64,000 bases of DNA from the NCBI GenBank assembly GCA_002898555.1, contig BEHR01000011.1:1229-65228 (forward strand), read 5' to 3'. Made by a program: the position numbers and the translations under genes. Source of the DNA: a bacterium HR15 (GTDB taxonomy: Bacteria > Armatimonadota > Fimbriimonadia > Fimbriimonadales > GBS-DC). Below the pieces are notes generated by a model, which saw only the letters and a program-made list of their open reading frames with translations, had not been told where the DNA came from and did not search any database. Shown here in pieces: positions 38,609 through 57,841 of the stretch (its first letter is position 1; the number at the start of each line of letters is the position of its first letter).

Positions 38609-38657
38609 CAGAATTTTTTCTCTGGTGTACCCATGCGGGTTGGAGAAGAAAATTCTG
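38609..38657. repeat. degenerate copy (copy 1) of the nested palindromic intergenic repeat family
   Basis: cagaattttttctctggtgtaccc...gggttggagaagaaaattctg; the arms are imperfectly complementary. Confidence 0.6.
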
Positions 38658-38794
38658 GGGTAAGGAATGCTCTCTATCATCCCCCGCAGGGTGGGGAATT
38701 TTGCTCCTGCAAAGATAGACGCTCGACGCTTTTGCGGTGCTTCATAGGACTAAAGTCCCTTGCATGCCGCCTATTTTGCGAGATACCATGCCAC

Positions 38795-41614: not shown

Positions 41615-44600
41615 ATGAGGAAATACTTGGTGATCGGGTTCCTGTTGATGGTGTCCATGCGGATAACGGGGCAGGCGCAGACTCGTGCCCACCCCGAGGT
41701 GGATGCCTTGATTCGCAAAGCGCTTGAAGCACGCCAGCAAGACCGCTGGCAGGATGCGCTGAGCTACTATCAGCAAGCCGTTGAGCGCGCGCGCACTCTG
41801 AATGACCGTGCTGGCGAAGCCAGCGCGTGGCATAACCTTGGGGTCGCGCAGATTCTCATGTCGCGTCCGCAGGATGCCCTCAACAGCCTGGAAAGGGCAC
41901 TCCCTATCTGGCGCGAAATCGGCAACCGCATGGGGGAAGCGAACACGCTGCACAATCTGGGCACTGCCTACGCCAATCTCGGCAGGGCACGCGAAGCACT
42001 TAACACCTATCAGCAAGCGCTGCAACTGCGCCAGCAATTAGGTCATCAAGCAGGTGTTGCGCTCACCTTGCAGGGCATCGGCTCCGTCTACTACGCCTTG
42101 CGCGAGTTGCCAACTGCCCAGCGCTACTTCGAACAGGCACTCGCCCTCTATCGCGAGCTGGGGAACAAGCAAGGTGAAGCCGAAACGCTGCGCTATCTCG
42201 GCAATATTCTGTATGTGAGTGGGCAGTGGCAGAAGGCGCTCGCGGTTTACGAAAACGCGCTCGCCCTGTTCCGCGAGACGAATGACTCCGAAGGGGAAGC
42301 GACCACTTTGGCGGGCATGGGCGCGCTCTTCCTGGACATGGGTCAGCCCGAACTGGCGTTAGGCTACTACCAGCAGACGCTCGAACTACATCAGAAGGGG
42401 GGCAAGCGACGCGAGGTCATCGCCGCCCAGTTAGGCATCGGGCACATCTATGCGACTATGGGTGAGATGGAGCAGGCGAAAAAAGCGTATGAGCAGGCGC
42501 TTGCCCTCAGCCGTGAAGCGAATGATAAACGCGCGGAAGCCGCTGCCCTGATCGCGCTCGCCACCGTCGAAACACGACTCCAGACCAGCCGTCCTGCTCA
42601 AGCCAGCGAGGGAACCGTTGAAGGAGTCAGCCGCGCTGAATCGCTCTATCGGCAGGCGATTCTCGTCACGCAGGCGACAGGCGATCAACTGGGTCAAGCC
42701 AATGCCTTGCAACAGTTGGGCACGCACTATGCGATTCTCAACCGCGCGGAGGAGGCGATCCGCTGCTTCGAGAAGTCCCTCGCGCTGTATCGCGAGGCAG
42801 GCGATCGGCGCGGCGAGATGATCGCGCTTTCCAATCTGGGCGCGGTCTATGCCGCTCGTGGCGAAAAGACAAAAGCGGCTGACTACTATCAGCAGGCGGT
42901 CAACCTCGCCGAAGCGATGCGCGAAGCGCTGGGCAGCCTCGCAGAAGGGAAGCTGGCATTTCAAGAGAATCGCCACGCGCTCTACGCCCGCTATATCAGC
43001 CTGCTATTGAGCTTGAACCGTCTCGAGGAAGCCTTTGCCGTCGCGCAGAAAGCGAAGGCGCGTGCTTTGACCGATCTGATGAGCGAAGGGCGAGTCAACC
43101 TCGCCTCGCACCTGCCCCCAGAGGAGCGTGAACAGGAGCGGCTGCTGCGCTATCGGCTCGATCGTGCCACCCAGAGCTTCCTTGCTGTCCGCGCAGACCC
43201 AGATGCCGACCCCGCTCTCGTTGCCCAATGGCGTGAAACCGTGCAGCAAGCCGAACGGGAATGGCAGGCGTTTATGGATAGCCTCTCTGCACGCTACCCT
43301 GCGCTGACGCGCCAGCAAGGAATACGCCCCGTGACGCTGGAACAGATCGCGCAAAGCCTACCCTCGGATGCTGCCCTGCTGGAATACCTGCTGCTTCAAC
43401 CCTCTGCACAAGCAGAGAAGAGCTATCTCCTTCTGTTCTGCTTGACGAACGAGGGAGGCAAGCCGCGCCTCAGTGCGCATTTGACCCCCCTGGGCGACAA
43501 ACCCCTTGCGGAGCGCACCGAATCGTTCGTGCTGACCTGTGCCGTGCCGAACGCACCGTATAAAGAGGAGGCACGCGCTATGTACCGCCTGCTTATCGGT
43601 CCCGTCGAAGCACGCATTGCTGGCAAGAAACGACTGATTATCTGCCCCGACAGCACCCTCTGGGATGTCCCCTTCCAGGCATTATGGAGCGATAAGGGCT
43701 TTCTGCTGGAGCAATACGAACTGACCTACGCGCCCAGCGCCACGGTTGCCATGCTACTGCGCGAATTGCGGTCCGTGCCGAATCGCCCTCGCCCAACACG
43801 CGAGCTACTGTTGGTGGCGAACCCACAGTTTGGCATGTTGACGCTGGCATCCGCGAACGAAAATCGTCCGCTGACAGCAGGCTCCCGTCCCTTGACCACA
43901 GGCGCACGCCCATTAACGACAGGCTCTCGCCCCCTAACGACAGGGGCGCGCCCGCTAACCACAGGCGCACGCCCACTGACGACGGGGGCACGCCCGCTGA
44001 CCACAGGCGCACGCCCACTGACCACAGGTGCACGCGACATTACGGGCGAATATCTGGCGGAAGTGGGTATTCGTGTCACCCCCTTGCCCGGCACGGAGCG
44101 TGAAGCCCAACAGATTGCTGCACTGTTCCCCGAAGCCACTTTGCTGACCAAAGCCGAAGCCCAGGAGGCAACCCTGAAGTCGATCATGGGGCAATATCGC
44201 TATCTGCACCTTGCCACGCATGGCTACTTCAGTGATGTGGCGCCTCTGCAAAGCGGGGTGCTGCTGGCGGAGCCACCTGCCGATGCCAGCGAGGATGGCA
44301 TTCTGACTGCACGCGAGTTGATGGAATTACCCCTGAGCGCGGAGATGGTGGTGCTATCCGCTTGTGAAAGCGCACGAGGGCGGGCGCGACCTGGTGAAGG
44401 CGCGATAGGGATGGTCTGGGCGCTGACGGTGAGCGGCATCCCCACGCAGGTGTTGAGCCAGTGGAAGGTGAGCGATGAAAGCACAGCGCTGCTGATGACC
44501 CGCTACTATCAAGAATTGAAAGCGGGCCGGTCGCCTGCAAGCGCCCTGCGCGAAGCTGCGCTCGCCGTGAAACAAGATACCCGCTTCCAACACCCCTACT

Positions 44601-44635
44601 ACTGGTCTCCCTTCATCTGCATTAGCAGCTGGTGA
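41615..44635 (+). CDS. exported TPR-repeat protein with C-terminal CHAT (caspase-like) protease domain
   Basis: Signal MRKYLVIGFLLMVSMRITGQA. About 12 TPRs (WHNLGVA, LHNLGTAY...). CHAT catalytic dyad context LHLATHGYF and VVLSACESARG. Confidence 0.85.
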   Translation: MRKYLVIGFLLMVSMRITGQAQTRAHPEVDALIRKALEARQQDRWQDALSYYQQAVERARTLNDRAGEASAWHNLGVAQILMSRPQDALNSLERALPIWREIGNRMGEANTLHNLGTAYANLGRAREALNTYQQALQLRQQLGHQAGVALTLQGIGSVYYALRELPTAQRYFEQALALYRELGNKQGEAETLRYLGNILYVSGQWQKALAVYENALALFRETNDSEGEATTLAGMGALFLDMGQPELALGYYQQTLELHQKGGKRREVIAAQLGIGHIYATMGEMEQAKKAYEQALALSREANDKRAEAAALIALATVETRLQTSRPAQASEGTVEGVSRAESLYRQAILVTQATGDQLGQANALQQLGTHYAILNRAEEAIRCFEKSLALYREAGDRRGEMIALSNLGAVYAARGEKTKAADYYQQAVNLAEAMREALGSLAEGKLAFQENRHALYARYISLLLSLNRLEEAFAVAQKAKARALTDLMSEGRVNLASHLPPEEREQERLLRYRLDRATQSFLAVRADPDADPALVAQWRETVQQAEREWQAFMDSLSARYPALTRQQGIRPVTLEQIAQSLPSDAALLEYLLLQPSAQAEKSYLLLFCLTNEGGKPRLSAHLTPLGDKPLAERTESFVLTCAVPNAPYKEEARAMYRLLIGPVEARIAGKKRLIICPDSTLWDVPFQALWSDKGFLLEQYELTYAPSATVAMLLRELRSVPNRPRPTRELLLVANPQFGMLTLASANENRPLTAGSRPLTTGARPLTTGSRPLTTGARPLTTGARPLTTGARPLTTGARPLTTGARDITGEYLAEVGIRVTPLPGTEREAQQIAALFPEATLLTKAEAQEATLKSIMGQYRYLHLATHGYFSDVAPLQSGVLLAEPPADASEDGILTARELMELPLSAEMVVLSACESARGRARPGEGAIGMVWALTVSGIPTQVLSQWKVSDESTALLMTRYYQELKAGRSPASALREAALAVKQDTRFQHPYYWSPFICISSW
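43865..44032 (+). repeat. eight tandem 21-nt coding repeats (RPLTTGA heptads) inside the CHAT protein
   Basis: Units start at 43865, 43886, 43907, 43928, 43949, 43970, 43991 and 44012. The peptide is conserved while third codon positions vary. Confidence 0.9.
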
Positions 44636-44789
44636 AATTTTTTCTCTGGGGTACTCAGCGAAGTGGGTCAGAGAAAAAATTTCAGGGGAAATTTTTTCTC
44701 TGGGGTACTCCAAAATTTTCTTCTCCGGGGTACCCAGATGGGTCGGAAAAGAAAATTTTGCTCGAAGCGGGTCAGAGAAAACATTTCAG
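44634..44789. repeat. compound copy (copy 3) of the nested palindromic repeat family
   Basis: A short hairpin (aaattttttctctggggtactc / gggtcagagaaaaaattt) is followed by a full two-level nested unit. The element overlaps the CHAT gene stop codon. Confidence 0.85.
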
Positions 44790-44802
44790 ATGAGGAAGTG
44801 CA

Positions 44803-47583: not shown

Positions 47584-47653
47584 GCGAGTATAACACGCAT
47601 TCTCGCCTCAAAAGCCCCTTGCCCGTGGCAACTCTCCACGCCCTCGCGGTGGT

Positions 47654-50053
47654 TTATTGACCCCCGCCCGAAGCGCCGTTAATTGCCCATTGCCCCCCTG
47701 AAGGTATGCTGGCTATCCACTTTAGCGAGTCCTCAACAAGGGCATACTCACTCCATATCCCCCCTTTTTGTTCCTTCCGCCTCTCAACGGAAGGTGGTAA
47801 TTGTGTCATGGCAATTGCCACAAACTCGAGCCCTTCGGATTCCAGCATAAGATGCATTTGCGAACTTCTCCTTCCATCCAGCCGTTCCAGAGCCTCGTGC
47901 AACGGGGGAGAGCGGCGTTTTGGATAGAGCATGGATTTCCCACGCAGATCATCCCATCCGAGCAGAGGCTCACGCTTGCCATTTGCTGTATCACACTGGT
48001 ATACCTGCACCCAACAAGGTTGGTTTGCAAATACGGTAAGGATGATATTTTTATCTCTTAAAGGAACAATTTTTACATAAACCTTAAGTTTCCCACCTTG
48101 CTCGAAAAGCGGAAGTGCATTTAAGCTATTCAACAAAGCAAGCCAGTGTCTAATTCGCTCGCTCCGGTCGTCGGATTGGTTATCAGGAGGGTGAGGAGTG
48201 GGCGTGGGAGGAGGGCTGGAGGAGCTTGTCTTAAGGGGTTTCAGCAGCGCATCTATTCTGAGTTGTCCTCCTGCTCGAACTGACCGGTGTGTCTCATAGT
48301 TTTCATAACCATCCAATTTGAGTAAAATGGCGACCTCTTTCTTTCCGGAGGGCAACTCATGGAAGCCCTCATAGGGTGTCACGCCCACTGCCTGACCATC
48401 CAAGTAAACAGTAGCTCCAGGGGGCTTGCTGGATACTGATAGGCTGTATTCAGGTCGATATGGTACTGGTCTCCCCAGTTTCACTGGTGGTGGAGGTAGA
48501 CCCGATCTCACCTTGGCACGCCCGGAACTCTGATGACCACGAATATCGGAGCGTGCAATAATTTCTAAGGTTGCCTCACTGCCCTTTTCCACTTGTCCCG
48601 TCAAGTCAAAGGATACTATAGGCTGTGTTGGATGTCCTCCCGAAAGGGAAACCTTTTTAGGTCCCTCCTTACAGGGCGCTCCATTGATTCTGGCTTCAAC
48701 CGTAACCTCGGTATCTTCTTTTGGCCATCCTGCAGGTAAATGCACAGGAACCTCAAGCCTTTCTCTGCGTGGAATCGTGACAATGACCAGCGGAGGAACC
48801 ACTCCTGGTTCCGCTGGGTCTACCATCCAGTTGGGGTCTACCTGAAGCTGCTCTAAGTCATAGGGCTTTAATTTTGCGGACACATGCCCCGTTTGATCTC
48901 GTTTTGGGTCGGGTTCTATCTTAAGACTGAGGGGCAGGGCGGTCCACAAAAATCGTAAACCCCTTTTTTCCCACGGCCATCGCTTGTAGAATTCTACGCC
49001 CGTGCGTGTCCCATCAGTGTAGAGGCGATACAAACATGGATATGGGCGCTTAATACCTTTGGTATCGGTTATCTCTACTGTAACCTTTAAATCACGCGGC
49101 ATCAGTCCAGGAGGCAATTGTCCCTCCGGTAAGCCTTCGAAATGCAGGCGTATACGTGCCTCAGGGCGATAAATAGGGGGGAAACCAAATAGAATCCCTA
49201 TAAGTAGCATTAGAACCACACCCGCAATTATCCAATCTGGCCACCAAGTTTTTAGAAAAGGCATAGGCACTATATGAATATGTCGCTCCATTTGACGCCG
49301 AATGCGCTCGCCATTGGCACGCACGGTTGCCTCCACTACGGGCAGCACACGCAAAGGCTCTTGCAAGCGTTGCTCCAGTGGCATTCGGCATACAACGCTC
49401 TGCCGCTGCCATCCATCTAGCCTCCCCATGTCCAGCACTTGCTCCCCACCGTCATCTAAGGGGAGCGGCTTGCCTTTATTATCTAGAATGTTCAGTCGAA
49501 GTTGAGCGTCGACAGGCAAATAGCTGTGATTTGTAACAGAAACCTCTATTCGCACTGTTCGATGCCATGGACGAGCTAATACAATTTTCGGATGGACATC
49601 TATCTTAATCGATTGAGCATTGACCGGTGGCACGAGCTGATACTCTTTGAGGAAATAAATCTCTCCTTGCCCTGTAGTATCGGGGATCCAATATTCCGTT
49701 ACAACGATCTCGAAGGGGCAAGGGGTAGTGCGTGGATGTTCGGGATCACTTACCAAGAGAAGAGTGAAACCACGACTCTCGTTGCTGCCCAACTCGATCA
49801 ATTCATCAGTGCTTACTACTTCGAGGTTGGAGTAAAGTGAGTATTCAGTAGGGTATAGATTCGTAACAACGACTTGATACCATCGTGGATAGTTTGTGCT
49901 ATTGGAAATAGAAAACTCGATACACTGCCCTGGCAGAACTATATACTCGCTTGACTCCTCCACAGCAAGCGAGCCATGCCGCGCCTCACCTTCTGGTGAT
50001 GGTGGTCTTAGAGTTTGATGTTCCCGAACAACCCACTGCGCTTTCCCGAACAT
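47654..50053 (-). CDS. single-pass membrane protein (799 aa): beta-rich cytoplasmic N-domain, one TM, PEGA domain, P/S/T linker, DUF4384-like C-terminus
   Basis: TM WWPDWIIAGVVLMLLIGILFGF. PEGA-like SSKPPGATVYLDGQAVGVTPYEG...LKLDGYENYE. Linker SSSSPPPTPTPHPP. Last gene of the low-GC operon. Confidence 0.7.
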   Translation of the reverse strand: MFGKAQWVVREHQTLRPPSPEGEARHGSLAVEESSEYIVLPGQCIEFSISNSTNYPRWYQVVVTNLYPTEYSLYSNLEVVSTDELIELGSNESRGFTLLLVSDPEHPRTTPCPFEIVVTEYWIPDTTGQGEIYFLKEYQLVPPVNAQSIKIDVHPKIVLARPWHRTVRIEVSVTNHSYLPVDAQLRLNILDNKGKPLPLDDGGEQVLDMGRLDGWQRQSVVCRMPLEQRLQEPLRVLPVVEATVRANGERIRRQMERHIHIVPMPFLKTWWPDWIIAGVVLMLLIGILFGFPPIYRPEARIRLHFEGLPEGQLPPGLMPRDLKVTVEITDTKGIKRPYPCLYRLYTDGTRTGVEFYKRWPWEKRGLRFLWTALPLSLKIEPDPKRDQTGHVSAKLKPYDLEQLQVDPNWMVDPAEPGVVPPLVIVTIPRRERLEVPVHLPAGWPKEDTEVTVEARINGAPCKEGPKKVSLSGGHPTQPIVSFDLTGQVEKGSEATLEIIARSDIRGHQSSGRAKVRSGLPPPPVKLGRPVPYRPEYSLSVSSKPPGATVYLDGQAVGVTPYEGFHELPSGKKEVAILLKLDGYENYETHRSVRAGGQLRIDALLKPLKTSSSSPPPTPTPHPPDNQSDDRSERIRHWLALLNSLNALPLFEQGGKLKVYVKIVPLRDKNIILTVFANQPCWVQVYQCDTANGKREPLLGWDDLRGKSMLYPKRRSPPLHEALERLDGRRSSQMHLMLESEGLEFVAIAMTQLPPSVERRKEQKGGIWSEYALVEDSLKWIASIPSGGQWAINGASGGGQ

Positions 50054-50111
50054 GGCTTATCCCCAAAGATATAGGTTATCATACCCTAAAGATATCTTCC
50101 ACCAATTGCGC

Positions 50112-50591
50112 TCAGGGCTGCAACACAACGGGATAGTATTGTTTATTCCCACGCGTCCCTCTCAACATTTGCTCGATAATTATCTTGCTGGCTGACGGTG
50201 TGAGATTGTTTTCGGCGGGAAATCTTTCTTTCAGCCATTGCATAAATTGTTTCGTCTCCATCCAAGTGACCCGTATCTGCGTATCATTACCGGATAGTCG
50301 ACGATCACGGCTAAAAGTCAGTTCCATAGTCGTACCCACGGGGCGTGTGAGTTGACAGCCAGTGCCGGTTGCCACAGGTTCCCACGGCTGAGAGCCAACT
50401 TGAACAAGATAGGCTTTTATAGGAGCGCCTTCTGGCGTGAATGTATGAAAGATTAAAGTAATATCTGCTGGATGGGGGGAAGGGGATTTTGGTACTTGCA
50501 AGCCCAGCCAAAGCGCAACGCCGAATACAAACAGCCAAACCACCAAAAACCACCATGAAAAGCAGCGTAGGGGGGCAGGCAAACGGTTCAT
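50112..50591 (-). CDS. N-terminally anchored small membrane protein (159 aa), unknown function
   Basis: ATG preceded by GGAGGG. TM FSWWFLVVWLFVFGVALWLGL. Lies 15 nt downstream of the preceding gene. Confidence 0.65.
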   Translation of the reverse strand: MNRLPAPLRCFSWWFLVVWLFVFGVALWLGLQVPKSPSPHPADITLIFHTFTPEGAPIKAYLVQVGSQPWEPVATGTGCQLTRPVGTTMELTFSRDRRLSGNDTQIRVTWMETKQFMQWLKERFPAENNLTPSASKIIIEQMLRGTRGNKQYYPVVLQP

Positions 50592-50606
50592 CCAAACCCT
50601 CCTTTT

Positions 50607-51710
50607 CTACTTAGCTTTGCCCACACAGTTCGGACACCGACCAGGGTCAACCTGACCTGGGCGAACTGTGTAGTACGCATTGCAGGAACATTTCCGAATT
50701 ATCAAAGAACCCTGAGAGGAGACCGGCGTCACGGGTATGAACCCAGGACTGGGTTCAGGTCTTTCGTAAGGCTGTTCTGGTTCACGCAACTCTCCATAGA
50801 GAGGAATAAGAGCTTCCATGGCTTTTTGTACGTGGTCGAGTGCGTCCCATATTTGCAACTGGGCTTCGGCACGATGCTTAATGTAGCTAATAGCGTTTTC
50901 GATTTGATCCTTTGCAGGTACCCAGCTGGCGAGCGGTGGTTGTAGGTTGGCTAATGGTAAAATCAGTTGAAAGAGAGAGACCAGCATCTCGGTCAGGCGA
51001 TTAAGCCAATCCCGTAGGTAGATCTGCCAGTCACTTATTATTGAAGCAGGGGCAAGCGCGGCAGCCATGTTCGCTGCGATTAGATGAGAAAAACCGCACC
51101 CAGACCTCGCATATTGCCCCAAAATTTGCTGTGAAGCTTGGGCAGTTTGTAGAATGGTCTTCACCTTATTGACCAGAAGCGGATGGCTATTCAAATAGAC
51201 CGACTCCGGGATATACTGATTGTCCACAACAAATCGCGCTCCCTCCTTGCGCATCTGCCCAATCTGGAGCCTGTCGTAAGCGTTCGCACTGGGTTCTGTT
51301 GTCAAGGCATAGGCCCAGCGAAGGGAACGAGCTTCCAGCAAGACAGTACTCTGAGCAGTTGTGGTTGGTACCGATTCCTTACCCCGAACCTCCAGGTAAA
51401 TCGGTACAATCGACTCTCGGTGCTGATCATTACTTCCCCTCAAGGGAGCCGGGCGGTTTGACTCGTTTACCTCTATTAGGTAACCTTGAGGACTTATTGC
51501 CCGGCATGCTTGCAGTACAATCTCATAATCGGAAGGCGACCCAGAAACGATTAGATCACCCTCTCGCATTGCGAGGACTCCCCGAGGATATGTGCTGGAA
51601 AGAACCCAGCGTATTAGCTCCTCCATATAGGCTGTCTCGCCAAATAGATGGTCAGCGTGCAGAAGCTGCACGCTGCTCCAGTCGACCGATGTAAGCTTGA
51701 ACCATGTCAA
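50607..51710 (-). CDS. TssK-like (baseplate shoulder-domain-like) protein with C-terminal CxC...CxxC zinc ribbon
   Basis: TTG start preceded by AGGAGGTG. The N-terminus VDWSSVQLLHADHLFGETAY...YPRGVLAM...LQACRAISPQGYLIEV parallels the TssK pattern W.EG.FL.PQHFQ...WGV...RFPDGTLID. C-terminus KCSCNAYYTVRPGQVDPGRCPNC. Family call is a by-eye inference. Confidence 0.5.
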   Translation of the reverse strand: MTWFKLTSVDWSSVQLLHADHLFGETAYMEELIRWVLSSTYPRGVLAMREGDLIVSGSPSDYEIVLQACRAISPQGYLIEVNESNRPAPLRGSNDQHRESIVPIYLEVRGKESVPTTTAQSTVLLEARSLRWAYALTTEPSANAYDRLQIGQMRKEGARFVVDNQYIPESVYLNSHPLLVNKVKTILQTAQASQQILGQYARSGCGFSHLIAANMAAALAPASIISDWQIYLRDWLNRLTEMLVSLFQLILPLANLQPPLASWVPAKDQIENAISYIKHRAEAQLQIWDALDHVQKAMEALIPLYGELREPEQPYERPEPSPGFIPVTPVSSQGSLIIRKCSCNAYYTVRPGQVDPGRCPNCVGKAK

Positions 51711-51774
51711 AGCATGTCACCTCCTGCATTCCACACTGCTGTGTTCTCTTTATCAGGCGTATCCCGATCATCGG

Positions 51775-53442
51775 TTATTGTACCCCCTCCAATATATCGC
51801 CCATTATGGGCGAACCACCGGCCAAGCGTGCCAAAGGCGTTTCAGCCCACTCTGCTCCATAACCCTGCGCCTCTTGGGCAAGATAGGCGGTTTCGCCAAG
51901 GATCGCCCAGTCCACTAACCATCTATAGCATATCGGCAAATGCACAGGAACAAAAAGACATGCCAAAACTTCGAGTTTCTTTTCAATCACCTCGATCCAC
52001 TCTGACGGCTGAGTGCGATCCATCGGGATATAAACTACCACTTGCGGTGAATGCAGCAGAGGGATCATGCTAACAAAAAGTGTCTGCCCGACTTGGGCAA
52101 GCGTTGTACCTAACCTACTGGGAGCAGGAGCCAGAGGTTCAATACGCACCTGGATATCGCGATGCACCAGCAGGCGTAATGCAGTCTGAAAAAGAGCGAA
52201 CCAGTCTATCAGGTGTCGCCGAAGAAGAATAAGCATTTCCAACACCACTTTTTCTTCAGGTAGAAAAAAGTTCATCGATTCCTGCTTGATACCCAAAAAA
52301 GCGTCATTATGCCACCAACTTCGCATCAGGTGTATTAAAGCGCCGCTCAGATTAAGCCCTTCGAAGATGCTACATTGTGAGGGATAAAAAGGGATATATT
52401 CTGGCAGGTAGCGGCGTACAAGTGCAAGTACCTCGTCGGGCGTCAGGTCCTCAGTACGCCCTGCCTCATACTGTTGACGAATAGCTTTGTAGACCTCCTG
52501 GACAGCTGGGTCTTGTGCTGTCCATAAAGTTTGCTCTGCTTGAGTCGGATCTCCTTGTTCATTATCTCTCGTGATGCTATCCCCCTGGCGTGGTATCCCT
52601 CTGCTTCCTTTGCCGTAGTTGAGAAATGATAATGGACGATGTGGGTAGAGATGAAGCCATTGCACCACATCCTCAACGCGGGATTGAGCACCCAAAGTCA
52701 CCGGGATGTGTCTTCCTTCGGGTTCAAAGGGAAAGAAGAATTCACAGCCCCCAAGCAGATCGGTCATGGCAACGAATAAAAAAGCGTTGGTAAAGATAAG
52801 CTCGGCAAATTCCTGTGCTAAGCGCGAATATAGAGATTCTTCTGTAAGATCTTCAGTTTCATAAAAATAAATATCTTCTTTGGATAGTTCCATAACATGT
52901 CCGTGTCGAATGAAAAGCAAGCGATCATGTGGTCGCTCGTTAGGAGGCGATGATTCGCCAAGATCGGGATACTGCTCATAGAGCTGTCGCATAAGGCACT
53001 CGACGGGAGTCTCCGCTGTGGAGAAATCCGCATGTCCTGTATGGCGATGTATATACTGCTCCCGATACCAACTTAGCATGGAAACACCAAAAGGCTTGTC
53101 TCCTTTAAGCCGTGCCAACGCTACTTCTGTGGGAGGCATGCCAAGCATGACAAGAGAGATAAAAGGAGCTAAGCGATTGTCCACCCGAACATTGACCCCT
53201 AAACGAATACGTAGATCTTTTAAACTCTGCTCAACTAAACTCTGCTTAACAAAATTGTCCACGCTCTCGCACAAGAGGTCACGATAGGGCAGGATTTCAC
53301 GGTGTGCTGGATGTCCGATAACAGGCAGGAGACGCACACCCGTCGCAGGTACCCCCATATCTGTAAGCACCTGCACCACATGCGCAAGCGAGGCGGGACC
53401 ATTCCACGAGGAGAAAGACGGTATGCGAAAGACTTTAATCAT
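51775..53442 (-). CDS. hypothetical cytoplasmic protein (555 aa), no family recognised
   Basis: ATG preceded by AAGGTGA. No TM or signal. Sits between the TssF-like and TssK-like genes. Confidence 0.6.
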   Translation of the reverse strand: MIKVFRIPSFSSWNGPASLAHVVQVLTDMGVPATGVRLLPVIGHPAHREILPYRDLLCESVDNFVKQSLVEQSLKDLRIRLGVNVRVDNRLAPFISLVMLGMPPTEVALARLKGDKPFGVSMLSWYREQYIHRHTGHADFSTAETPVECLMRQLYEQYPDLGESSPPNERPHDRLLFIRHGHVMELSKEDIYFYETEDLTEESLYSRLAQEFAELIFTNAFLFVAMTDLLGGCEFFFPFEPEGRHIPVTLGAQSRVEDVVQWLHLYPHRPLSFLNYGKGSRGIPRQGDSITRDNEQGDPTQAEQTLWTAQDPAVQEVYKAIRQQYEAGRTEDLTPDEVLALVRRYLPEYIPFYPSQCSIFEGLNLSGALIHLMRSWWHNDAFLGIKQESMNFFLPEEKVVLEMLILLRRHLIDWFALFQTALRLLVHRDIQVRIEPLAPAPSRLGTTLAQVGQTLFVSMIPLLHSPQVVVYIPMDRTQPSEWIEVIEKKLEVLACLFVPVHLPICYRWLVDWAILGETAYLAQEAQGYGAEWAETPLARLAGGSPIMGDILEGVQ

Positions 53443-53464
53443 TTTTTCACCTTCTTATAAATGA

Positions 53465-55090
53465 TCAAATCCTGGTCAGGCATCCCTCCACTTGATACCA
53501 CCCAATCATGAAATATTGGGCAATGATCGAGGCGGCATAACGCGTTGCGTCCTCCAGTAAGAAACGAGGTACATCCATGCGTCTGGGGTAAAAAACAAGG
53601 CGCATCTTGGGCATAATGGCACACCGCGAACGGGCCAGATAACCCGCACGCATCTCTAATAAGATCGTGTCACCAATCAAAGATGGATAGAGATAAGTCT
53701 CCCACACAGTTCGCTCTTCCCATGGAGCAGCTGCCACATCCAGTTGGATTGCAGTTTGATCAATATCAAACCACAATCGGCATGAAGATAAATGAGACAA
53801 TATTTCTTTTATATCACCCTCTGTCAGTAATGTAGGGCGAAAAATAGTGTGATACCAATAGTAGCGTGCGGCGTTATTATCAGGCTGACTCATTAGCAAA
53901 CTCATGCCACCTACTGCAGGCAAAGGTGTGCGGAAACGCTGCCCACCAGGACGAATGAGGTATTCAGGATGCAAGCGTCCAGGAACAGGATTTTCACCTA
54001 AGCAGGCATAATAGACCTTGATCTCGGAAACCGTTTGATCGCATATTATATCAACATCATATGGACAGCTCTCAGGCGATGATGTTCCCTCAAAGGTAGT
54101 TGCATGGGTACGAACGAAGCGTACGCGATGAATAACATCACCTGTGCGAGCAATAGCGGCAAAAAAGTTGGTTATCCCCGCAAAGCTAACTTTGTATGCA
54201 TCCCCCACGGCATGGAGGGTTGCTACCACGGGGTGATGGAGCACTCCCATCTGTGCCACAGGAATCGCGTTAATCACAAGTGGAGGCTGCACACTGTTAG
54301 AGGCCACGCGATCAGCGAGGGTTTGATCAATCAGTGCCGCAAGACGAATGAATTCATCGCTAATCCCGAGCCATTCCCACTCAGCGGAATCCGTTATGGA
54401 TGAGGAAGGAGACGGTTGATAAAAACGAAGAAACTTTCGAGAATAGGGATGGAAAGGGGGTAGCCAAGCCGCCAGATGCCATTGGGAAAGGCGGGCTACC
54501 CCCATCTCACGCTCAAATTCCAGATACCCCGTATAACGTTCCACCTTAACTACCTCAAACGATCGCCCAGGATACTGAATCGCCCACCTCGCATTCGCTA
54601 ATAAAGCGACGAGTGGCTCATCTCCCCAGACAAAGGCGAGTAATCCATTCTCCGAGAAGAGCGTTGCAATGTCCGATTCGCGGCTCTCGCACCGGAGGAT
54701 TAACACTAAAGCAACTTGCCCCTCCGTTGACCGCGTGAGTGTCCACTCGACAAGTTCTAAAGGCAGTGTCCAGCCATATCCACAGGGTGTCCAAAAAGTT
54801 CCTGTAAACGGATCCGTAAAGGTTGTTCCCATCGTAATCTCGCGATAGCGTGGTTCCTGGGGCACAGCAATTGTTTGCGCGGGAAAATGCCACTCCCCTG
54901 AAGGGAAAAACTGTTCCATAAAGCGAAGCAGCGTTCTTTGCTCTGCCTCAGCAATCTGTTCAGCAATCGCTGTCTTCCAAGCAGCGAGCATTCCTAAAAA
55001 AGGAGCATATTTGCTTATTTCTGACTCCACTCGCTGACGCACTGTTGGATCCATCTGATCCAATATCTCTTTCTCGTCGTATCTGTTCAC
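53465..55090 (-). CDS. TssF-like (gp6-like baseplate wedge) protein
   Basis: GTG start preceded by GGAGG. DPTVRQRVES resembles TssF DPHVERLIES, and RTLLRFMEQFFPSGEWHFPAQTIAVPQEP resembles TssF LLGQLFPDYHAPIPSMSIVQFE. The size is compatible (541 aa). By-eye inference. Confidence 0.45.
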   Translation of the reverse strand: MNRYDEKEILDQMDPTVRQRVESEISKYAPFLGMLAAWKTAIAEQIAEAEQRTLLRFMEQFFPSGEWHFPAQTIAVPQEPRYREITMGTTFTDPFTGTFWTPCGYGWTLPLELVEWTLTRSTEGQVALVLILRCESRESDIATLFSENGLLAFVWGDEPLVALLANARWAIQYPGRSFEVVKVERYTGYLEFEREMGVARLSQWHLAAWLPPFHPYSRKFLRFYQPSPSSSITDSAEWEWLGISDEFIRLAALIDQTLADRVASNSVQPPLVINAIPVAQMGVLHHPVVATLHAVGDAYKVSFAGITNFFAAIARTGDVIHRVRFVRTHATTFEGTSSPESCPYDVDIICDQTVSEIKVYYACLGENPVPGRLHPEYLIRPGGQRFRTPLPAVGGMSLLMSQPDNNAARYYWYHTIFRPTLLTEGDIKEILSHLSSCRLWFDIDQTAIQLDVAAAPWEERTVWETYLYPSLIGDTILLEMRAGYLARSRCAIMPKMRLVFYPRRMDVPRFLLEDATRYAASIIAQYFMIGWYQVEGCLTRI

Positions 55091-55192
55091 CGTCTGCCTC
55101 CGTTAGCGAATAATCTTTAGAAGCTTTGCCCACCAGATTCCGACTTTGAGTCGCCTATTTCCCATTATACCTGCGAATACTCTATTCCCAGT

Positions 55193-55650
55193 CTAAGTGG
55201 GGGTGAGTAGGGTCTGCAGCCAATCACGGAGTTGTCTCGCTTGTGTTCCTATGCCACCTGCTGTGCATCCAAGGGTTGTGCCTGGGGGAACCCAAAGGGT
55301 TGTCGGTTGGAGCACCTCCCGATAGAGTCGTCCCATTGCGAGAAAGATTTCACCATAGGGTATGGTTTCCATACGCCTTTGGAGGGCTGCTATCACCCGA
55401 GGCGACAGCTGTTGCGCACGCGCTCGATCCATCTTGCGGTTATAGTACGGGATGGGTGTGGCAGCTTCTATTAGACCAAATTCTGACGAGAGCAGAAGAA
55501 TGTCCACGGACCGAACTTGCGCTGGCGATGCTTGCTGCAACCATCGACGCACGATGCGATAGAATACCCATCACAGCGCTCTATCGCGGGTAGCAGACCC
55601 GCGTCCACGCGCTTCTGTGCGGAGCATGCCAGTATCAGCAGATGCTTCAT
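55193..55650 (-). pseudogene. DUF6884-like gene interrupted by a frameshift near 55567-55569
   Basis: ATG 55650 preceded by GGAGG. MKHLLILACSAQKR...LPAIERCDG (frame A) continues sensibly only in another frame as (V)FYRIVRRWLQQ...DILLLSSEFGLIEAATPIPYYNRKM. A G3 run lies at the junction. Confidence 0.55.
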
Positions 55651-55728
55651 TGCAATACCTCCTCGAGCGCAACACGAGCAGTTATTTCGGGAGCGAATGG
55701 TCCGCCACCGAGTAGACTTTGACAATGG

Positions 55729-56613
55729 CTAACGAACAATCTCACAGGACCATGGGACGGTGATTTCCGTACGACCTGCCTTTAATATAAGCCTGCCCTG
55801 AAACTTACCAGTTGCTTTGGGGGCAGGAATGAACTCAACACCCAGGATAAGGGTATTTTGCTGTCGATCAATGGAGCGTACCAGAAACTGTCCAGCCATC
55901 GTATGAGGATTGACCAGCTGCACTTTCGTATATTGATCGGCAATATAATTAGAGTCAAAAATAATTTTTAGATATCTAATAACCCGTTTTTCTTTTGAAA
56001 TGATTCCCAACCCCAGTGATGAAGGCAAGGTTTGTACAGGGCTGCATGGCTCTATATTGACATTGATTGTTTTTATTATACTATCTTTAAGTTTTACTAT
56101 AATTTTTCCATATCTAAAAGTTTTATATTTAATTACTTTGATTTTCAAAGCTCTCGATTTTCGATCGATACTCAAAATTATTCCTGGTATATTCGATAAA
56201 ATTCTTATATCGTTCAAATCAATTGAATTGCAGAAATTAAAAAAGAGTATATTTTTATGATCACATTTTATGTGAAGATAATTGGGCGCATTGAGCAAGC
56301 AATTTATCTGTTTACCGGAAAGTTTAGCAACCAAGATAGCTTTCTTTTGATTATCAGTTTCAACTTCGACCCAGAAGGTGTCCTGAATGGGCTTTTCCTG
56401 TATTCCCTCCCAATGTGGTGGTAAATCGAGGCGCGCTTTTACATGGAGCGTTCCACCAGGAGGTACGATTCGAGGAGCATAGCTATAAGTTGCCTGCGTA
56501 TTTGGTAAAGGTGCCACATGGCCTGGGTTCATAGTCACATACAGAGCCAGGGGCTGGACGGCATCGTGGATACCGGACACGGTTCGACACAAACTCCTCA
56601 CAAATCGTGCCAC
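55729..56613 (-). CDS. beta-rich (Ig-like/DUF1573-like?) protein with an extremely AT-rich central coding segment
   Basis: ORF of 294 aa. An alternative start at ATG 56532 is possible. It overlaps the upstream Cys-rich ORF by 50-131 nt. C-terminus GKFQGRLILKAGRTEITVPWSCEIV. Confidence 0.5.
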   Translation of the reverse strand: MARFVRSLCRTVSGIHDAVQPLALYVTMNPGHVAPLPNTQATYSYAPRIVPPGGTLHVKARLDLPPHWEGIQEKPIQDTFWVEVETDNQKKAILVAKLSGKQINCLLNAPNYLHIKCDHKNILFFNFCNSIDLNDIRILSNIPGIILSIDRKSRALKIKVIKYKTFRYGKIIVKLKDSIIKTINVNIEPCSPVQTLPSSLGLGIISKEKRVIRYLKIIFDSNYIADQYTKVQLVNPHTMAGQFLVRSIDRQQNTLILGVEFIPAPKATGKFQGRLILKAGRTEITVPWSCEIVR

Positions 56614-56899
56614 AGAAAGTAACTCTACCTATTCTAATACATCCAGAAAAGCACCGGCAAGGGATATCTTGGCAGCTCGCTATAAGCCAAGGCGTGCATT
56701 TCTGATCGTTGACTCGGATAGGATTTGGCTTAGTGGCACATGGTTTGACAGACGCAACAACTACTTCATCGGGCGCTGTTGCCAGGCCACAAGCGTCTTT
56801 CTCAGAGGATATACCTACGCCAATTGGCACCCAACTGAGCAGGATGCCGACTACAACCCTCAAGCCAATGCTCCAGCACGACAAACCGATTTTGCGCAT
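56483..56899 (-). CDS. small exported/anchored Cys-rich protein (139 aa)
   Basis: ATG 56899 preceded by GGAGGTGG. Hydrophobic N-terminus LSCWSIGLRVVVGILLSWVPIGVG. At least 14 Cys residues. Confidence 0.55.
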   Translation of the reverse strand: MRKIGLSCWSIGLRVVVGILLSWVPIGVGISSEKDACGLATAPDEVVVASVKPCATKPNPIRVNDQKCTPWLIASCQDIPCRCFSGCIRIGRVTFCGTICEEFVSNRVRYPRCRPAPGSVCDYEPRPCGTFTKYAGNL

Positions 56900-57007
56900 C
56901 TTTTGTCCACCTCCATTTAAAAATAACGCTCCCATCGTTCCTTTGGGGACATCATAGTACCATCTCCGAGTGGATGCTTACTTTTTTCTGCCAATGCTCC
57001 CGCATAA

Positions 57008-57544
57008 CTACGAGCAACTCTCTGTCTGTAGAGGATAGACCACCGCCGAAATTACCCCCCCACTTTGTACCCAGTTCTGGAGTTTCTTGATGGCTCGCTG
57101 ACAAGTCTTCTTGACATTCTCTTTAGAGTGGCCATCGCCTATCTGTCGCGCGATGACGGAAAACGATAGGCCTTCCAAGTAATGAAGTATCACAATCAAT
57201 CGCTCTCGCTCCGAAAGCCGAGCAAGTGCTTGCTCCAGCATCAAACGCTGCTCTACCTGCTCATAGCCCATCTCGTCCATGGCGTATTCTGTACCCAGCT
57301 CCTCCAGCGACACCGTGGCAGGTTTGCGTTTGCGACGGCGCAGATAGTCGTTTTTTACACTTTGACAGACACGGTGAAGGTAGGCACGTGTAACTGCTTG
57401 CTGGCGTTGCTGACAGCGCAATAGGCGCAGCAGGACATCTTGGATCATGTCCTCTATGCAGTTAGCATCCCGTTCATGTTGCAGGAACCAACGCCGTGCT
57501 TCATTATACCATTCGCTTTCTTTAAGCAAGTCACGCTCCTCCAT
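57008..57544 (-). CDS. ECF-type sigma-70 family RNA polymerase sigma factor
   Basis: Region 2 (IQDVLLRLLRC...YLHRVCQSVKNDYLRRR) and region 4 (LSERERLIVILHYLEGLSFSVIARQIG...VKKTCQRAIKKL). The ORF extension to 57820 is just translation of the palindromic repeat. Confidence 0.8.
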   Translation of the reverse strand: MEERDLLKESEWYNEARRWFLQHERDANCIEDMIQDVLLRLLRCQQRQQAVTRAYLHRVCQSVKNDYLRRRKRKPATVSLEELGTEYAMDEMGYEQVEQRLMLEQALARLSERERLIVILHYLEGLSFSVIARQIGDGHSKENVKKTCQRAIKKLQNWVQSGGVISAVVYPLQTESCS

Positions 57545-57671
57545 GGCGCGCTCCTCCTCAAAAAGAGGATTCGCCTTGCTCGAGGCGATTCCTGCATGGT
57601 GTGTGGTTGCTTCATGCCATAATAAAAGGGGCGTGATGGGATGAGACTGCCCGCAACGCCGCCCGATGCTG

Positions 57672-57826
57672 CAGAATTTGCTTCTTCGGGGTAGCCCAAA
57701 ATTTTTTCTCTGGGGTACTCCAAAATTTTCTTCTCCGGGGTACCCATCTGGGTCGGAGAAGAAAATTTTGAGCGCAGCGGGGTCAGAGAAAAAATTTTGC
57801 CGTCTGACTCGGAGAAGCAAATTCTG
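57672..57826. repeat. full three-level nested palindromic repeat (copy 4) between the ECF sigma gene and ppdK
   Basis: Perfect stems 57672-57685/57813-57826 (14 bp), 57697-57712/57784-57799 (16 bp) and 57721-57737/57754-57770 (17 bp). A GGGTACCC palindrome sits at the apex. Confidence 0.9.
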
Positions 57827-57841
57827 GAGGAGGTTGGAAGA

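What the first reader, a model, noticed from the sequence alone, without database searches (positions are those of the whole stretch)
50607..51710. TssK-like protein whose C-terminal head is replaced by a zinc ribbon
Seen: the N-terminal 110 aa is MTWFKLTSVDWSSVQLLHADHLFGETAYMEEL...YPRGVLAM...IVLQACRAISPQGYLIEVNE...VPIYLEV. This follows the order of conserved TssK shoulder-domain landmarks (W-EG-FL-PQHFQ, hpWGV, RFPDGTLID, then a beta strand). The protein has only 367 aa and ends in KCSC-x16-CPNC, a four-Cys zinc-ribbon pattern. Canonical TssK has a C-terminal head domain there, which contacts the membrane complex. Established: the TssK shoulder is homologous to siphophage receptor-binding-protein shoulders. 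Inference: this is a baseplate adaptor re-targeted through a zinc ribbon.
Basis: partly seen in the sequence, partly recalled or inferred. Interest (0 to 1): 0.6.

Follow-up and report, generated by a model that had tools for sequence, protein, structure and literature searches.

The report
Headless TssK homologue with zinc-finger tail
This gene encodes a real but shortened relative of the type VI secretion baseplate protein TssK with a small zinc-finger tail, and it belongs to a conserved five-gene operon that looks like the base-and-membrane part of a very divergent, undescribed secretion machine in uncultured bacteria.

Summary
The ORF is real. It lies on the minus strand at 50607-51710, has 367 aa and a TTG start behind a GGAGG, and equals GBC92650.1 of bacterium HR15 (Armatimonadota). 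Residues 1-~306 are a true TssK shoulder and neck: TIGR03353 E 2.7e-12, Pfam PF05936 above its cut-off, hhalign 97.7%. An AlphaFold model (pLDDT 88.8) has 16 best PDB matches, all TssK or IglD. The C-terminal head is absent. In its place are a Pro-rich linker and a four-Cys finger (CxC-x15-CxxC, not x16).

The whole family of about 35 representatives (301-385 aa) lacks a head. Only the four closest homologues carry the cysteines, so the finger is a late, clade-specific addition.

The gene is third in a conserved operon: 541 aa, 555 aa, TssK-like, a 159-aa membrane protein and a 799-aa membrane protein. In distant relatives these five genes sit in clusters with VgrG, a tube-like protein, PAAR toxins, DUF4123 and Tsi6. 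In the HR15 clade they sit alone beside caspase/CHAT genes.

Most likely it is the baseplate-to-membrane adaptor of a divergent T6SS-like system. No sheath or wedge homology could be shown.

The parts
50607..51710 (-). TssK-like gene (367 aa, TTG start, stop at 50607-50609); GBC92650.1 of bacterium HR15
51201..51710 (-). Residues 1-170: N-terminal helix plus beta-sandwich 'shoulder' domain
   Evidence: AF2 model pLDDT mostly >90; TIGR03353 alignment; hhalign 1-218 on TssK 1-232; Foldseek hits to the TssK N-terminal domain 5MWN/5M30/6N38
50793..51182 (-). Residues 177-306: helical 'neck' (five predicted helices)
   Evidence: helices 177-201, 207-223, 232-255, 263-280, 287-306; Pfam PF05936 match 124-235; Foldseek alignments of about 320 columns
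50706..50792 (-). Residues 307-335: Pro-rich flexible linker containing the family-wide 'P-V/EP[VI]' motif
   Evidence: pLDDT 55-66; alignment of the tails
50610..50705 (-). Residues 336-367: four-Cys (C341, C343, C359, C362) treble-clef-like zinc finger, specific to this clade
   Evidence: Cys invariant in window, P0002, P0003, P0004 and L023/L024; pLDDT 72-92, two strands plus a helix at CPNC; DUF4379-like, 14 bits against <=2.8 in shuffles
53465..55090 (-). First gene of the operon, 541 aa, no known domain. Candidate wedge (TssF-like) subunit; not demonstrated
   Evidence: Conserved synteny in L001-L004, L006, L024, L108, L109, L110; 23 homologues, none with an informative Pfam family or name; hhalign to the TssF N-terminus P 0.13 and 0.027, not significant
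51775..53442 (-). Second gene, 555 aa, no known domain. Candidate wedge (TssG-like) subunit; not demonstrated
   Evidence: Same synteny; hhalign to TssG P 0.0038, probability 8.8%, not significant
50112..50591 (-). Fourth gene, 159 aa, with one N-terminal transmembrane segment (about residues 7-35). It follows the TssK-like gene in nearly every locus examined
   Evidence: Hydropathy; homologues directly downstream of the TssK-like gene in L001-L006, L009, L010, L106, L107, and a small gene of matching size and position in L109/L110; AAGGAGG plus ATG 12 nt after the TssK-like stop codon
47654..50053 (-). Fifth gene, 799 aa. About 265 N-terminal residues without a signal peptide, one transmembrane segment (about 269-297), then a long C-terminal region with a PEGA domain
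   Evidence: Pfam PEGA E 4e-12; hydropathy; N-terminal ~400 aa conserved in L006/L107 relatives
41615..44635 (+). TPR-CHAT (caspase-like) protein 3 kb from the operon. Possible accessory, because caspase-family genes flank the cassette in other loci
   Evidence: Pfam CHAT E 1e-75; Peptidase_C14/DUF4384 next to the cassette in L001, L002, L006, L024, L107, L109

Best explanation
The gene encodes a cytoplasmic, headless TssK homologue. It probably acts as the adaptor between a baseplate-like complex and the cell membrane in a very divergent T6SS-related apparatus.

Shown:
1. Residues 1-~306 have the TssK shoulder-plus-neck sequence signature and predicted fold.
2. The head is absent throughout the family.
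3. The gene is third in a tightly spaced, same-strand five-gene operon conserved down to about 30% identity: 541 aa, 555 aa, TssK-like, a 159-aa single-pass membrane protein and a 799-aa single-pass membrane protein with PEGA.
4. In four divergent relatives the same five genes are embedded between a ~870-aa protein, a ~145-aa tube-like protein and a VgrG. Those clusters also carry typical T6SS cargo: PAAR toxins, a DUF4123 adaptor, Tsi6 immunity and a WHH/deaminase polymorphic toxin.

Inferred:
1. The shoulder docks onto the 541/555 proteins, as TssK docks onto TssF/TssG.
2. The neck trimerises.
3. The flexible Pro-rich tail, rather than a head domain, contacts the cytoplasmic parts of the two membrane proteins encoded immediately downstream. 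This would replace the TssK-head to TssL/TssM contact.

The four-Cys finger is a late addition in the HR15/Fimbriimonadales clade. It is grafted exactly onto the ancestral basic C-terminus. Most likely it is a small zinc-stabilised protein-protein interaction knob that strengthens or alters that membrane-proximal contact.

In this clade the cassette stands alone in a low-GC island next to caspase/CHAT genes. The spike, tube and ~870-aa genes must therefore be encoded elsewhere, or be missing.
For: TssK homology:
- TIGR03353 E 2.7e-12.
- PF05936 above its gathering score.
- PDB TssK sequences E 3.5e-4.
- hhalign 97.7% to a T6SS-i TssK alignment and 95.3% to a T6SS-iii TssK.
- AF2 model pLDDT 88.8, pTM 0.77.
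- Top 16 Foldseek PDB hits are all TssK or IglD; the best are the TssK N-terminal-domain structures.

Headless family and clade-specific Cys.

Operon:
- Gaps of 22, 64, 15 and 58 nt on one strand.
- Shine-Dalgarno sequences before the TssK-like and 159-aa genes.
- Synteny in L001-L004, L024, L006, L107/L108, L109 and L110.

T6SS-type neighbours in relatives:
- VgrG: Phage_GPD/Phage_base_V, TIGR03361 E 1.5e-12.
- Tube-like protein: T4 gp19, E 0.0046.
- PAAR-LysM-NlpC/P60, DUF4123/Tla1-like, PAAR-RHS, Tsi6, Toxin-deaminase/WHH.

Membrane topology: hydropathy of the 159-aa and 799-aa proteins.

TssK domain roles: shoulder, 4-helix middle domain and head, with the baseplate linking tail and membrane complex (PMC8406304).
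Against: - No sheath (TssB/C), TssE, TssF, TssG, ClpV, TssJ/L/M, Hcp, VgrG or PAAR is detectable anywhere in the 64-kb window.
- The 541-aa and 555-aa proteins show no significant similarity to TssF/TssG, or to anything else. This holds for Pfam, NCBIfam, PHROGs, PADLOC, PDB sequence profiles and hhalign.
- The ~870-aa and tube-like proteins of the extended clusters are also essentially unrecognisable. A contractile mechanism is therefore not shown even in the relatives.
- The most constant neighbours of the cassette in the HR15 clade are caspase-family proteases, not secretion genes.
- Trimerisation, partner contacts and zinc binding were not tested.
- The score to the TssK equivalog model is well below its cut-off (46.5 against 100 bits).
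Confidence: 0.55

Rival explanations
1. In the HR15 clade the cassette is uncoupled from any injection device. The TssK-like protein, the 541/555 proteins and the two membrane proteins would form a membrane-anchored scaffold. It would work with the neighbouring caspase-like proteases (CHAT, Peptidase_C14-DUF4384) and STAND NTPase as a conflict or cell-death module. The zinc finger would be the clade's new docking or sensing element.
For: - No spike, tube or sheath genes lie in the window or in the 12-21-kb HR15-type contigs L001, L002 and L024.
- Caspase-family genes are adjacent in every HR15-type locus long enough to show neighbours, and also in the extended clusters.
- A cyclase-STAND-TPR gene and a clostripain gene lie nearby.
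- In the loci examined, the zinc finger occurs only with the minimal architecture.
- TssK-like genes also occur without the 541/555 genes, next to HSP70/DnaJ or a HerA-like ATPase.
Against: - T6SS loci are often split across a genome, so absence from 64 kb proves little.
- The five proteins are orthologous to those inside VgrG/PAAR clusters.
- No known caspase-based system uses a TssK fold.
- The finger/architecture correlation comes from a single clade, so it counts as one evolutionary event.
Confidence: 0.22
2. It is an ordinary TssK of a known T6SS subtype (i-iv) that is merely truncated, frameshifted or mis-called. On this view the Cys motif is incidental.
For: Pfam PF05936 passes its gathering score. 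A TssK of only 359 aa is annotated in a T6SS-iii locus on a Capnocytophaga plasmid.
Against: - Length and C-terminus are conserved in about 35 family representatives.
- The stop codon is followed 12 nt later by the Shine-Dalgarno sequence and start of a conserved downstream gene, so there is no room for a lost head.
- The score is below the TssK equivalog cut-off.
- None of the other T6SS core genes of any subtype is detectable beside it.
- The Cys are invariant across sequences only 54-58% identical.
Confidence: 0.03
3. It is a prophage or phage-tail remnant. The protein would be a siphophage-type receptor-binding or baseplate protein with a TssK-like shoulder, and the neighbours would be tail proteins.
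For: - The TssK shoulder is structurally related to siphophage receptor-binding proteins (PMC8406304).
- There is a weak Foldseek hit to a Bacillus phage tail fibre, E 5.9e-4.
- The cassette lies in a low-GC island.
Against: - None of the cassette proteins hits a PHROG family.
- The window has no capsid, terminase, integrase or tape-measure genes.
- PDB hits to TssK are about 4 orders of magnitude better than any viral hit.
- The helical neck is TssK-like.
- Two of the five proteins are integral membrane proteins.
Confidence: 0.04
4. The zinc finger is a nucleic-acid-binding or regulatory module rather than a structural contact. An example would be autoregulation or RNA binding by the free protein.
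For: Treble-clef and zinc-ribbon fingers often bind nucleic acids. The tail is basic (IRKC...GKAK) and sits on a flexible linker. The closest sequence pattern is the DUF4379 repeat, whose function is unknown.
Against: Nothing in the context points to nucleic acids. The rest of the family keeps a basic terminus without the finger, which suggests the basic patch already has a protein or membrane partner.
Confidence: 0.08

Closest known systems
TssK of T6SS-i (EAEC Sci-1; PDB 5M30, 5MWN, 6N38, 6GIY)
   Same: N-terminal beta-sandwich shoulder followed by a helical neck. The profile match is co-linear from residue 1 to about 255, and these are the best structural matches. The gene sits directly upstream of membrane-protein genes, as tssK-tssL does in the Citrobacter and Pantoea loci.
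   Different: It lacks the C-terminal alpha/beta head (about 130 aa) and has only 14-18% identity. It scores below the equivalog cut-off. It has a flexible Pro-rich tail plus a Cys4 finger instead of the head. Its neighbours are not recognisable as TssL/TssM/TssF/TssG.
T6SS-iii (Bacteroidota) baseplate/membrane module: TssK-TssG-TssO-TssO-TssP-TssR
   Same: The TssK is short (359 aa on the Capnocytophaga plasmid). It is followed by small single-pass membrane proteins and a large protein rich in beta-sandwich domains, with no TssJLM. The family profile matches this TssK at 95.3%. The next-best library hits of the family resemble Bacteroidota TssK.
   Different: The 159-aa and 799-aa proteins show no detectable similarity to TssO/TssP/TssR/TssN. 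T6SS-iii loci have recognisable TssF, TssG, gp25, TssD and sheath genes, and these loci do not. I did not test whether the 359-aa T6SS-iii TssK truly lacks a head.
IglD (Francisella T6SS-ii TssK homologue; PDB 8DQL)
   Same: A divergent TssK-fold protein recovered by Foldseek at E 2.5e-6. This shows that very diverged TssK homologues exist in atypical T6SSs.
   Different: The system, neighbours and host are different, and IglD has no zinc finger.
Siphophage receptor-binding-protein shoulders
   Same: The fold is distantly related to the TssK shoulder (PMC8406304). There is a weak hit to a phage tail fibre.
   Different: The match is much weaker than to TssK. There is no phage context, and the helical neck is TssK-type.
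DUF4379 (PF14311), 'probable treble clef zinc finger'
   Same: The tail pattern h-h-[KR]-x-C-x-C/H-x2-Y-x-V-x-P-x6-G-x-C-P-x-C-x-G matches the nine repeats of P0048.
   Different: The tail alone does not reach any Pfam family at E<=1. It is a single copy at the end of a structural protein, and the first ligand pair is CxC (CxxC in P0002).

Membership tests
TssK (ImpJ/VasE) protein family | Significant match to the family sequence models | tested here: met
   Pfam PF05936 gives 24.8 bits against a gathering score of 23.4, covering only profile 129-238. TIGR03353 gives E 2.7e-12 over profile 3-256, but 46.5 bits is below the equivalog cut-off of 100. It is therefore a homologue, not an equivalog.
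TssK (ImpJ/VasE) protein family | N-terminal beta-sandwich shoulder plus helical middle (neck) domain | tested here: met
   AF2 pLDDT 88.8. Foldseek top 16 hits are all TssK/IglD, with about 320 aligned columns and TM 0.55-0.65 normalised to the TssK N-terminal-domain structures.
TssK (ImpJ/VasE) protein family | [quoted passage not shown] | tested here: not met
   Profile positions after about 256 of 429 are unmatched. The model shows a linker plus a 30-residue finger after residue 306. The whole family is 301-385 aa long.
TssK (ImpJ/VasE) protein family | Homotrimer that binds TssG foot loops and TssF in a (TssK3)2-TssF2-TssG wedge | not testable with these tools
   No multimer prediction was available. 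The candidate partners (541 aa, 555 aa) are adjacent and co-conserved but are not demonstrably TssF/TssG.
Type VI secretion system (any described subtype i-iv) | Contractile sheath (TssB/TssC) and tube (Hcp/TssD) genes | tested here: not met
   None in the window. Relatives have a ~145-aa protein with only a weak T4 gp19 match (E 0.0046). They also have a ~870-aa protein with no significant sheath similarity.
Type VI secretion system (any described subtype i-iv) | Wedge proteins TssE/TssF/TssG | tested here: inconclusive
   No HMM hits. By hhalign the 541 family matches the TssF N-terminus at P 0.13 (255 co-linear columns) and 0.027. The 555 family matches the TssG C-terminus at P 0.0038. All are below significance. 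No gp25-like gene was seen.
Type VI secretion system (any described subtype i-iv) | VgrG/PAAR spike and associated effectors, adaptors and immunity genes | tested here: inconclusive
   Absent from the window. Present next to the orthologous cassette in L006, L107/L108, L109 and L110 and next to a lone TssK-like gene in L007.
Type VI secretion system (any described subtype i-iv) | Membrane complex TssJ/L/M (subtype i) or TssN-R (subtype iii) | tested here: not met
   The 159-aa and 799-aa membrane proteins show no similarity to TssL, TssM, TssN, TssO, TssP or TssR. They occupy the equivalent gene position.
Zinc ribbon / treble-clef zinc finger | Four conserved metal ligands in two knuckles | tested here: met
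   C341, C343, C359 and C362 are invariant in 5 distinct sequences. P0002 has CxxC in the first knuckle.
Zinc ribbon / treble-clef zinc finger | Fold: knuckle and beta-hairpin, with the second ligand pair at a second hairpin (ribbon) or at a helix N-terminus (treble clef) | tested here: inconclusive
   The AF2 model has strands 337-340 and 346-349 and a helix 360-363 starting at CPNC, which favours a treble clef. The tail is DUF4379-like at 14 bits against <=2.8 in shuffles, but it has no Pfam hit on its own.
Zinc ribbon / treble-clef zinc finger | Actual zinc binding | not testable with these tools
   Needs metal analysis of the purified tail.

The most novel reading that the evidence does not exclude
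The five-gene cassette may be the conserved core of an undescribed class of T6SS-related machine. That class would have about eight core genes: a ~870-aa protein, a ~145-aa tube-like protein, the 541 family, the 555 family, a headless TssK, a small membrane protein, a large membrane protein and VgrG. Its sheath, wedge and membrane parts would have diverged beyond sequence recognition. It is habitually linked to caspase-like proteases, a kinase and Hsp70/DnaJ. In the HR15/Fimbriimonadales clade it would be reduced to a stand-alone baseplate-membrane module with a zinc-finger-tipped TssK. That module may operate without a contractile tail.
Probability: 0.35. Interest if true: 0.8.

Novelty: new variant of a known kind. 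Interest (0 to 1): 0.6.

Why it matters
TssK links a phage-derived baseplate to the cell envelope, and its head domain is thought to be the adaptation that allowed this link. A whole family of headless TssK proteins always travels with its own pair of membrane proteins and two unrecognisable large proteins. This shows a second solution to the same docking problem.

The family also points to a T6SS-like lineage that current annotation pipelines miss entirely. Every cassette protein is annotated 'hypothetical' in bacterium HR15. That lineage occurs in Armatimonadota and other uncultured bacteria, and it carries recognisable toxins such as PAAR-RHS, NlpC/P60 and WHH/deaminase.

The zinc finger itself is a small, easily testable handle. 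It is one clade-specific module on a flexible tail, and its partner would identify the membrane-proximal contact.

Tried and rejected
- Plus-strand reading of the coordinates: full of stops. The gene is on the minus strand.
- AF2 with the 5-sequence alignment: the N-terminus was unusable, pLDDT 22-49. It was redone with 28 sequences.
- PDB sequence search with the shallow profile A1: nothing. The wider profile A2 found TssK.
- Genome-collection scan with the family alignment: the first attempt failed for lack of conserved stretches. The second found no relative in 185,579 species genomes.
- Word-indexed protein search with the 28-sequence alignment: only 5 hits.
- Identifying the 541-aa and 555-aa proteins: Pfam, NCBIfam, PADLOC, PHROGs, PDB profiles, BLASTP and hhalign against TssF/TssG/TssE/TssB/TssC/Hcp/TssL/TssM/TssA and T6SS-iii TssN-R alignments that I assembled from plasmid loci. 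All were non-significant.
- Identifying the ~870-aa and tube-like proteins of the extended clusters: no significant hits.
- Literature searches found nothing describing this family. Terms tried: TssK + zinc ribbon; TssK + Chloroflexi; TssK + contractile injection + cyanobacteria; DUF4384/PAAR/Hsp70; T6SS + Chloroflexota; new subtype; Armatimonadota + T6SS.
- The 83-nt direct repeats 13 kb apart looked like island boundaries. The unit also occurs at 38611 and 60547, so it is a dispersed intergenic repeat.
Full report
**1. The observation**

The coordinates 50607-51710 hold a 367-codon ORF on the minus strand. The plus strand is full of stops. The start is TTG at 51710, with GGAGG 9 nt upstream.

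One metagenome gene caller started at Met47 (P0001, 320 aa). Residues 1-46 are conserved in all homologues, which begin at the same position. NCBI also annotates the 367-aa form as GBC92650.1, 'hypothetical protein HRbin15_01126 [bacterium HR15]'.

Pyruvate phosphate dikinase from the window is 85% identical to that of a Fimbriimonadales MAG. The next best matches are Chthonomonadia and Armatimonadetes at 68% and 64%. The host is therefore an Armatimonadota bacterium.

**2. Is it TssK-like?**

Yes. The evidence is as follows.
- NCBIfam TIGR03353 (TssK) aligns residues 9-255 to profile positions 3-256 of 429 at E 2.7e-12.
- Pfam PF05936 scores 24.8 bits, above its gathering score of 23.4.
- A profile of 28 family members hits the EAEC TssK chains 6N38, 5MWN, 6GIY and 5M30 at E 3.5e-4 to 1.7e-3.
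- hhalign of that family against a small T6SS-i TssK alignment built from plasmid loci gives 97.7% and E 2e-12, with columns 1-218 on 1-232. Against a T6SS-iii TssK it gives 95.3%.
- AlphaFold2 with five sequences failed on the N-terminus. With 28 sequences it gave pLDDT 88.8 and pTM 0.77.
- The model has an N-terminal helix and beta-sandwich (residues 1-~170), five helices (177-306), a low-confidence linker (307-335) and a small C-terminal module (336-367).
- Foldseek against the PDB returned only TssK structures and the Francisella homologue IglD in the top 16, at E 9e-9 to 2.5e-6. Alignments were about 320 columns long. The best normalised scores were to the TssK N-terminal-domain structures.
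- The viral structure library gave only weak hits, the best named one a Bacillus phage tail fibre at E 5.9e-4.

[quoted passage not shown] The window protein has the first two domains and no head.

**3. The cysteine tail**

The tail is ...SLIIRKC-S-C-NAYYTVRPGQVDPGR-C-PN-C-VGKAK. Four of the six cysteines of the protein lie in the last 27 residues.

All four are invariant in the four distinct close homologues, P0002, P0003 (and its near-identical copies in L023/L024) and P0004, at 54-58% identity. P0002 has CPQC in the first knuckle.

The model places two short strands around the first knuckle and a helix that starts at CPNC, with pLDDT 72-92. This geometry suggests a treble clef rather than a classical two-hairpin ribbon.

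In the exhaustive library search, the tail part of the profile matched nine repeats of P0048. Pfam calls those repeats DUF4379, 'probable treble clef zinc finger'. An HMM of those repeats scores the window tail at 14 bits, P0003 at 14.6 and P0004 at 16.9. No shuffle of the last 45 residues exceeded 2.8 bits in 200 trials. The tail alone reaches no Pfam family.

**4. Head 'replaced' by the finger?**

Only in a loose sense. The exhaustive profile search found 60 proteins, of which about 35 are full-length relatives of 301-385 aa. None has room for a head.

Only the window protein and its four closest relatives carry the cysteines. The others end in a Pro-rich linker with a recurrent EP[VI]/PV motif and a basic terminus such as RRRR, RRKP, RRT or GRR. 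The finger begins exactly at that basic motif (IRKC/IRRC).

Headlessness is therefore ancestral to the family. The finger is a late, clade-specific graft.

**5. Context in the window**

The gene is third of five same-strand genes separated by 22, 64, 15 and 58 nt.

| Gene | Coordinates | Notes |
|---|---|---|
| 541 aa | 55090-53465 | no known domain |
| 555 aa | 53442-51775 | no known domain |
| TssK-like, 367 aa | 51710-50607 | the finding |
| 159 aa | 50591-50112 | one N-terminal transmembrane segment |
| 799 aa | 50053-47654 | no signal peptide, one transmembrane segment at ~269-297, PEGA domain at 536-606 |

The 159-aa gene has its own AAGGAGG and starts 12 nt after the TssK-like stop codon.

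The cassette and four small upstream genes form a low-GC island: GC 0.43-0.51, against 0.57-0.62 in the flanks. The upstream genes are a 119-aa DUF6884 protein, a 294-aa protein, a 150-aa protein and an ECF sigma factor.

The rest of the window is ordinary chromosome. It holds ftsY-like, dnaG, secDF, dnaA, purF and ppdK genes, plus a TPR-CHAT protein, a cyclase-STAND-TPR protein and a clostripain-family peptidase. Nothing in the window resembles a sheath, tube, VgrG, PAAR, ClpV, TssE/F/G or TssJ/L/M.

**6. Context elsewhere**

The five genes are syntenic in every HR15-type contig long enough to show them (L001, L002, L003, L004, L023/L024). There they are flanked by divergently transcribed Peptidase_C14 and DUF4384 genes and then by housekeeping genes.

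Orthologues at 30-40% identity lie in larger clusters:

| Locus | Gene order |
|---|---|
| L006 and L107/L108 | [~870 aa][142-aa tube-like][VgrG][Ser/Thr kinase-FGE][541 fam][555 fam][TssK-like][small TM][large TM x1-2][caspase-DUF4384][PAAR or PAAR-LysM-NlpC/P60][DUF4123][..][HSP70] |
| L109 | the same, plus a caspase-WD40 protein and a PG_binding protein |
| L110 (31% identity) | [842 aa][147 aa][541 fam][555 fam][TssK-like][small TM][large TM with fn3][VgrG][Tsi6][SseB][..][DcrB][Toxin-deaminase/WHH toxin] |

Lone TssK-like genes, usually with the small membrane protein, also occur in three other settings. One is next to DnaJ, HSP70 and PAAR-RHS (L007/L008). One is next to DUF6386, HSP70 and DnaJ (L009). 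One is next to a HerA-like ATPase (L005).

VgrG, PAAR, DUF4123 and Tsi6 are hallmark T6SS spike, adaptor and immunity families. The family therefore belongs to a T6SS-related world.

**7. What could not be shown**

The 541-aa and 555-aa families have no significant similarity to anything I could test. This covers Pfam, NCBIfam, PADLOC, PHROGs, PDB sequence profiles, BLASTP and hhalign.

Each family's longest co-linear hhalign alignment is to the positionally expected partner:
- 541 family N-terminus to TssF N-terminus: P 0.13 over 255 columns against T6SS-i, and P 0.027 against T6SS-iii.
- 555 family C-terminus to TssG C-terminus: P 0.0038.
- ~870-aa family C-terminal region to TssC: P 0.18 over 163 columns.

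These are leads, not evidence. A contractile mechanism is therefore not demonstrated, even for the extended clusters.

**8. Most likely mechanism**

I judge the overall model at about 0.55. That the protein is a TssK homologue I put at more than 0.95.

The protein would form the TssK-type shoulder and neck. Its shoulder would dock on a wedge made of the 541/555 proteins. Its flexible tail would reach the cytoplasmic faces of the two membrane proteins encoded just downstream, which takes the place of the head-TssL/TssM contact of canonical systems.

The nearest analogy is the Bacteroidota T6SS-iii. There a 359-aa TssK is followed by TssG, small TssO membrane proteins, a PKD protein and TssR, and no TssJLM is present. 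No homology between the membrane parts was detectable.

The Cys4 finger is probably a zinc-stabilised interaction knob acquired in the HR15 clade. In the loci seen, it coincides with the minimal, VgrG-unlinked architecture. That is one clade, so it counts as a single evolutionary event.

**9. Rivals**

- Caspase-linked scaffold uncoupled from injection in this clade: 0.22.
- Nucleic-acid-binding role for the finger: 0.08.
- Phage remnant: 0.04.
- Ordinary truncated TssK: 0.03.

**10. Novelty**

No paper in the held library describes this family. All cassette proteins are 'hypothetical' in GenBank. The family is absent from 185,579 species-representative genomes at the sensitivity of the scan, and it is rare in the protein collections.

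I rate it a new variant of a known kind: a headless, zinc-finger-tipped TssK in a divergent T6SS-like cassette. There is a substantial chance that the cassette marks an undescribed class of T6SS-related machine.

Noticed in passing
window 47600-57800: A low-GC island (GC 0.43-0.51, against 0.57-0.62 in the flanks). It contains the five-gene cassette, a DUF6884 gene, an AT-rich 294-aa gene (GC 0.40), a 150-aa gene and an ECF sigma factor. This suggests horizontal acquisition.
   Followed up: partly
window 38611, 44631-44790, 57674-57830, 60547: A dispersed intergenic repeat built from 25-27-nt units (AAATTTTTTCTCTGGGGTACTC...). It includes an 83-nt, 93%-identical direct repeat at 44689-44771 and 57699-57781. 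The pair brackets the island plus two normal-GC genes, but the unit also occurs elsewhere, so it is REP/MITE-like rather than an att site.
   Followed up: partly
window 55193-55552 (-): A 119-aa DUF6884 protein just upstream of the operon. It weakly matches the PADLOC candidate defence family PDC-M57A (E 9e-5) and phrog_5935 (E 4e-6).
   Followed up: no
window 41615-44635 (+) and 38507-41521 (+): A 1006-aa TPR-CHAT protein with about eight tandem 'RPLTTGA' peptide repeats before the CHAT domain. Next to it is a 1004-aa adenylate/guanylate cyclase-STAND NTPase-TPR protein, and a clostripain (C11) peptidase lies at 37361-38581. Together they form a cluster of conflict-system-type genes beside the cassette.
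   Followed up: partly
window 55729-56613 (-): A 294-aa AT-rich ORF with no family. Its only hint is a BLASTP E 0.001 match of 57 residues to the PKD-domain TssP of the Capnocytophaga T6SS-iii locus. It overlaps the 150-aa ORF 56483-56935 by 130 nt, so one of the two starts is probably wrong.
   Followed up: no
L006, L107/L108, L109, L110 (relatives): A conserved gene pair, [~840-880-aa protein][~142-147-aa protein], precedes the cassette. The order matches sheath-then-tube, but only the small protein has a weak T4 gp19 hit (E 0.0046). Caspase-DUF4384, Ser/Thr kinase-FGE-sulfatase and HSP70/DnaJ genes recur in these clusters.
   Followed up: partly
541-aa family (window 53465-55090 and homologues): Four cysteines (C103, C350, C363, C437) are invariant across members down to 39% identity. 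Motifs such as PCGxGWTLP and WLPPFxPYxRKFLRF are also invariant. This may be a metal or disulfide site in the unknown protein.
   Followed up: no
TssK-like family C-termini (P0005-P0030): Family members without the finger share a short EP[VI]/PV motif in the Pro-rich tail and a basic last few residues (RR/RK). This looks like a conserved short linear docking motif.
   Followed up: partly
window 26293-27759 (+): dnaA lies in the window, so the region is probably near the chromosomal replication origin. Four tRNA genes (His, Lys, Val, Gly) cluster at 21657-22302, and a further tRNA-Gly lies at 3141-3215.
   Followed up: no
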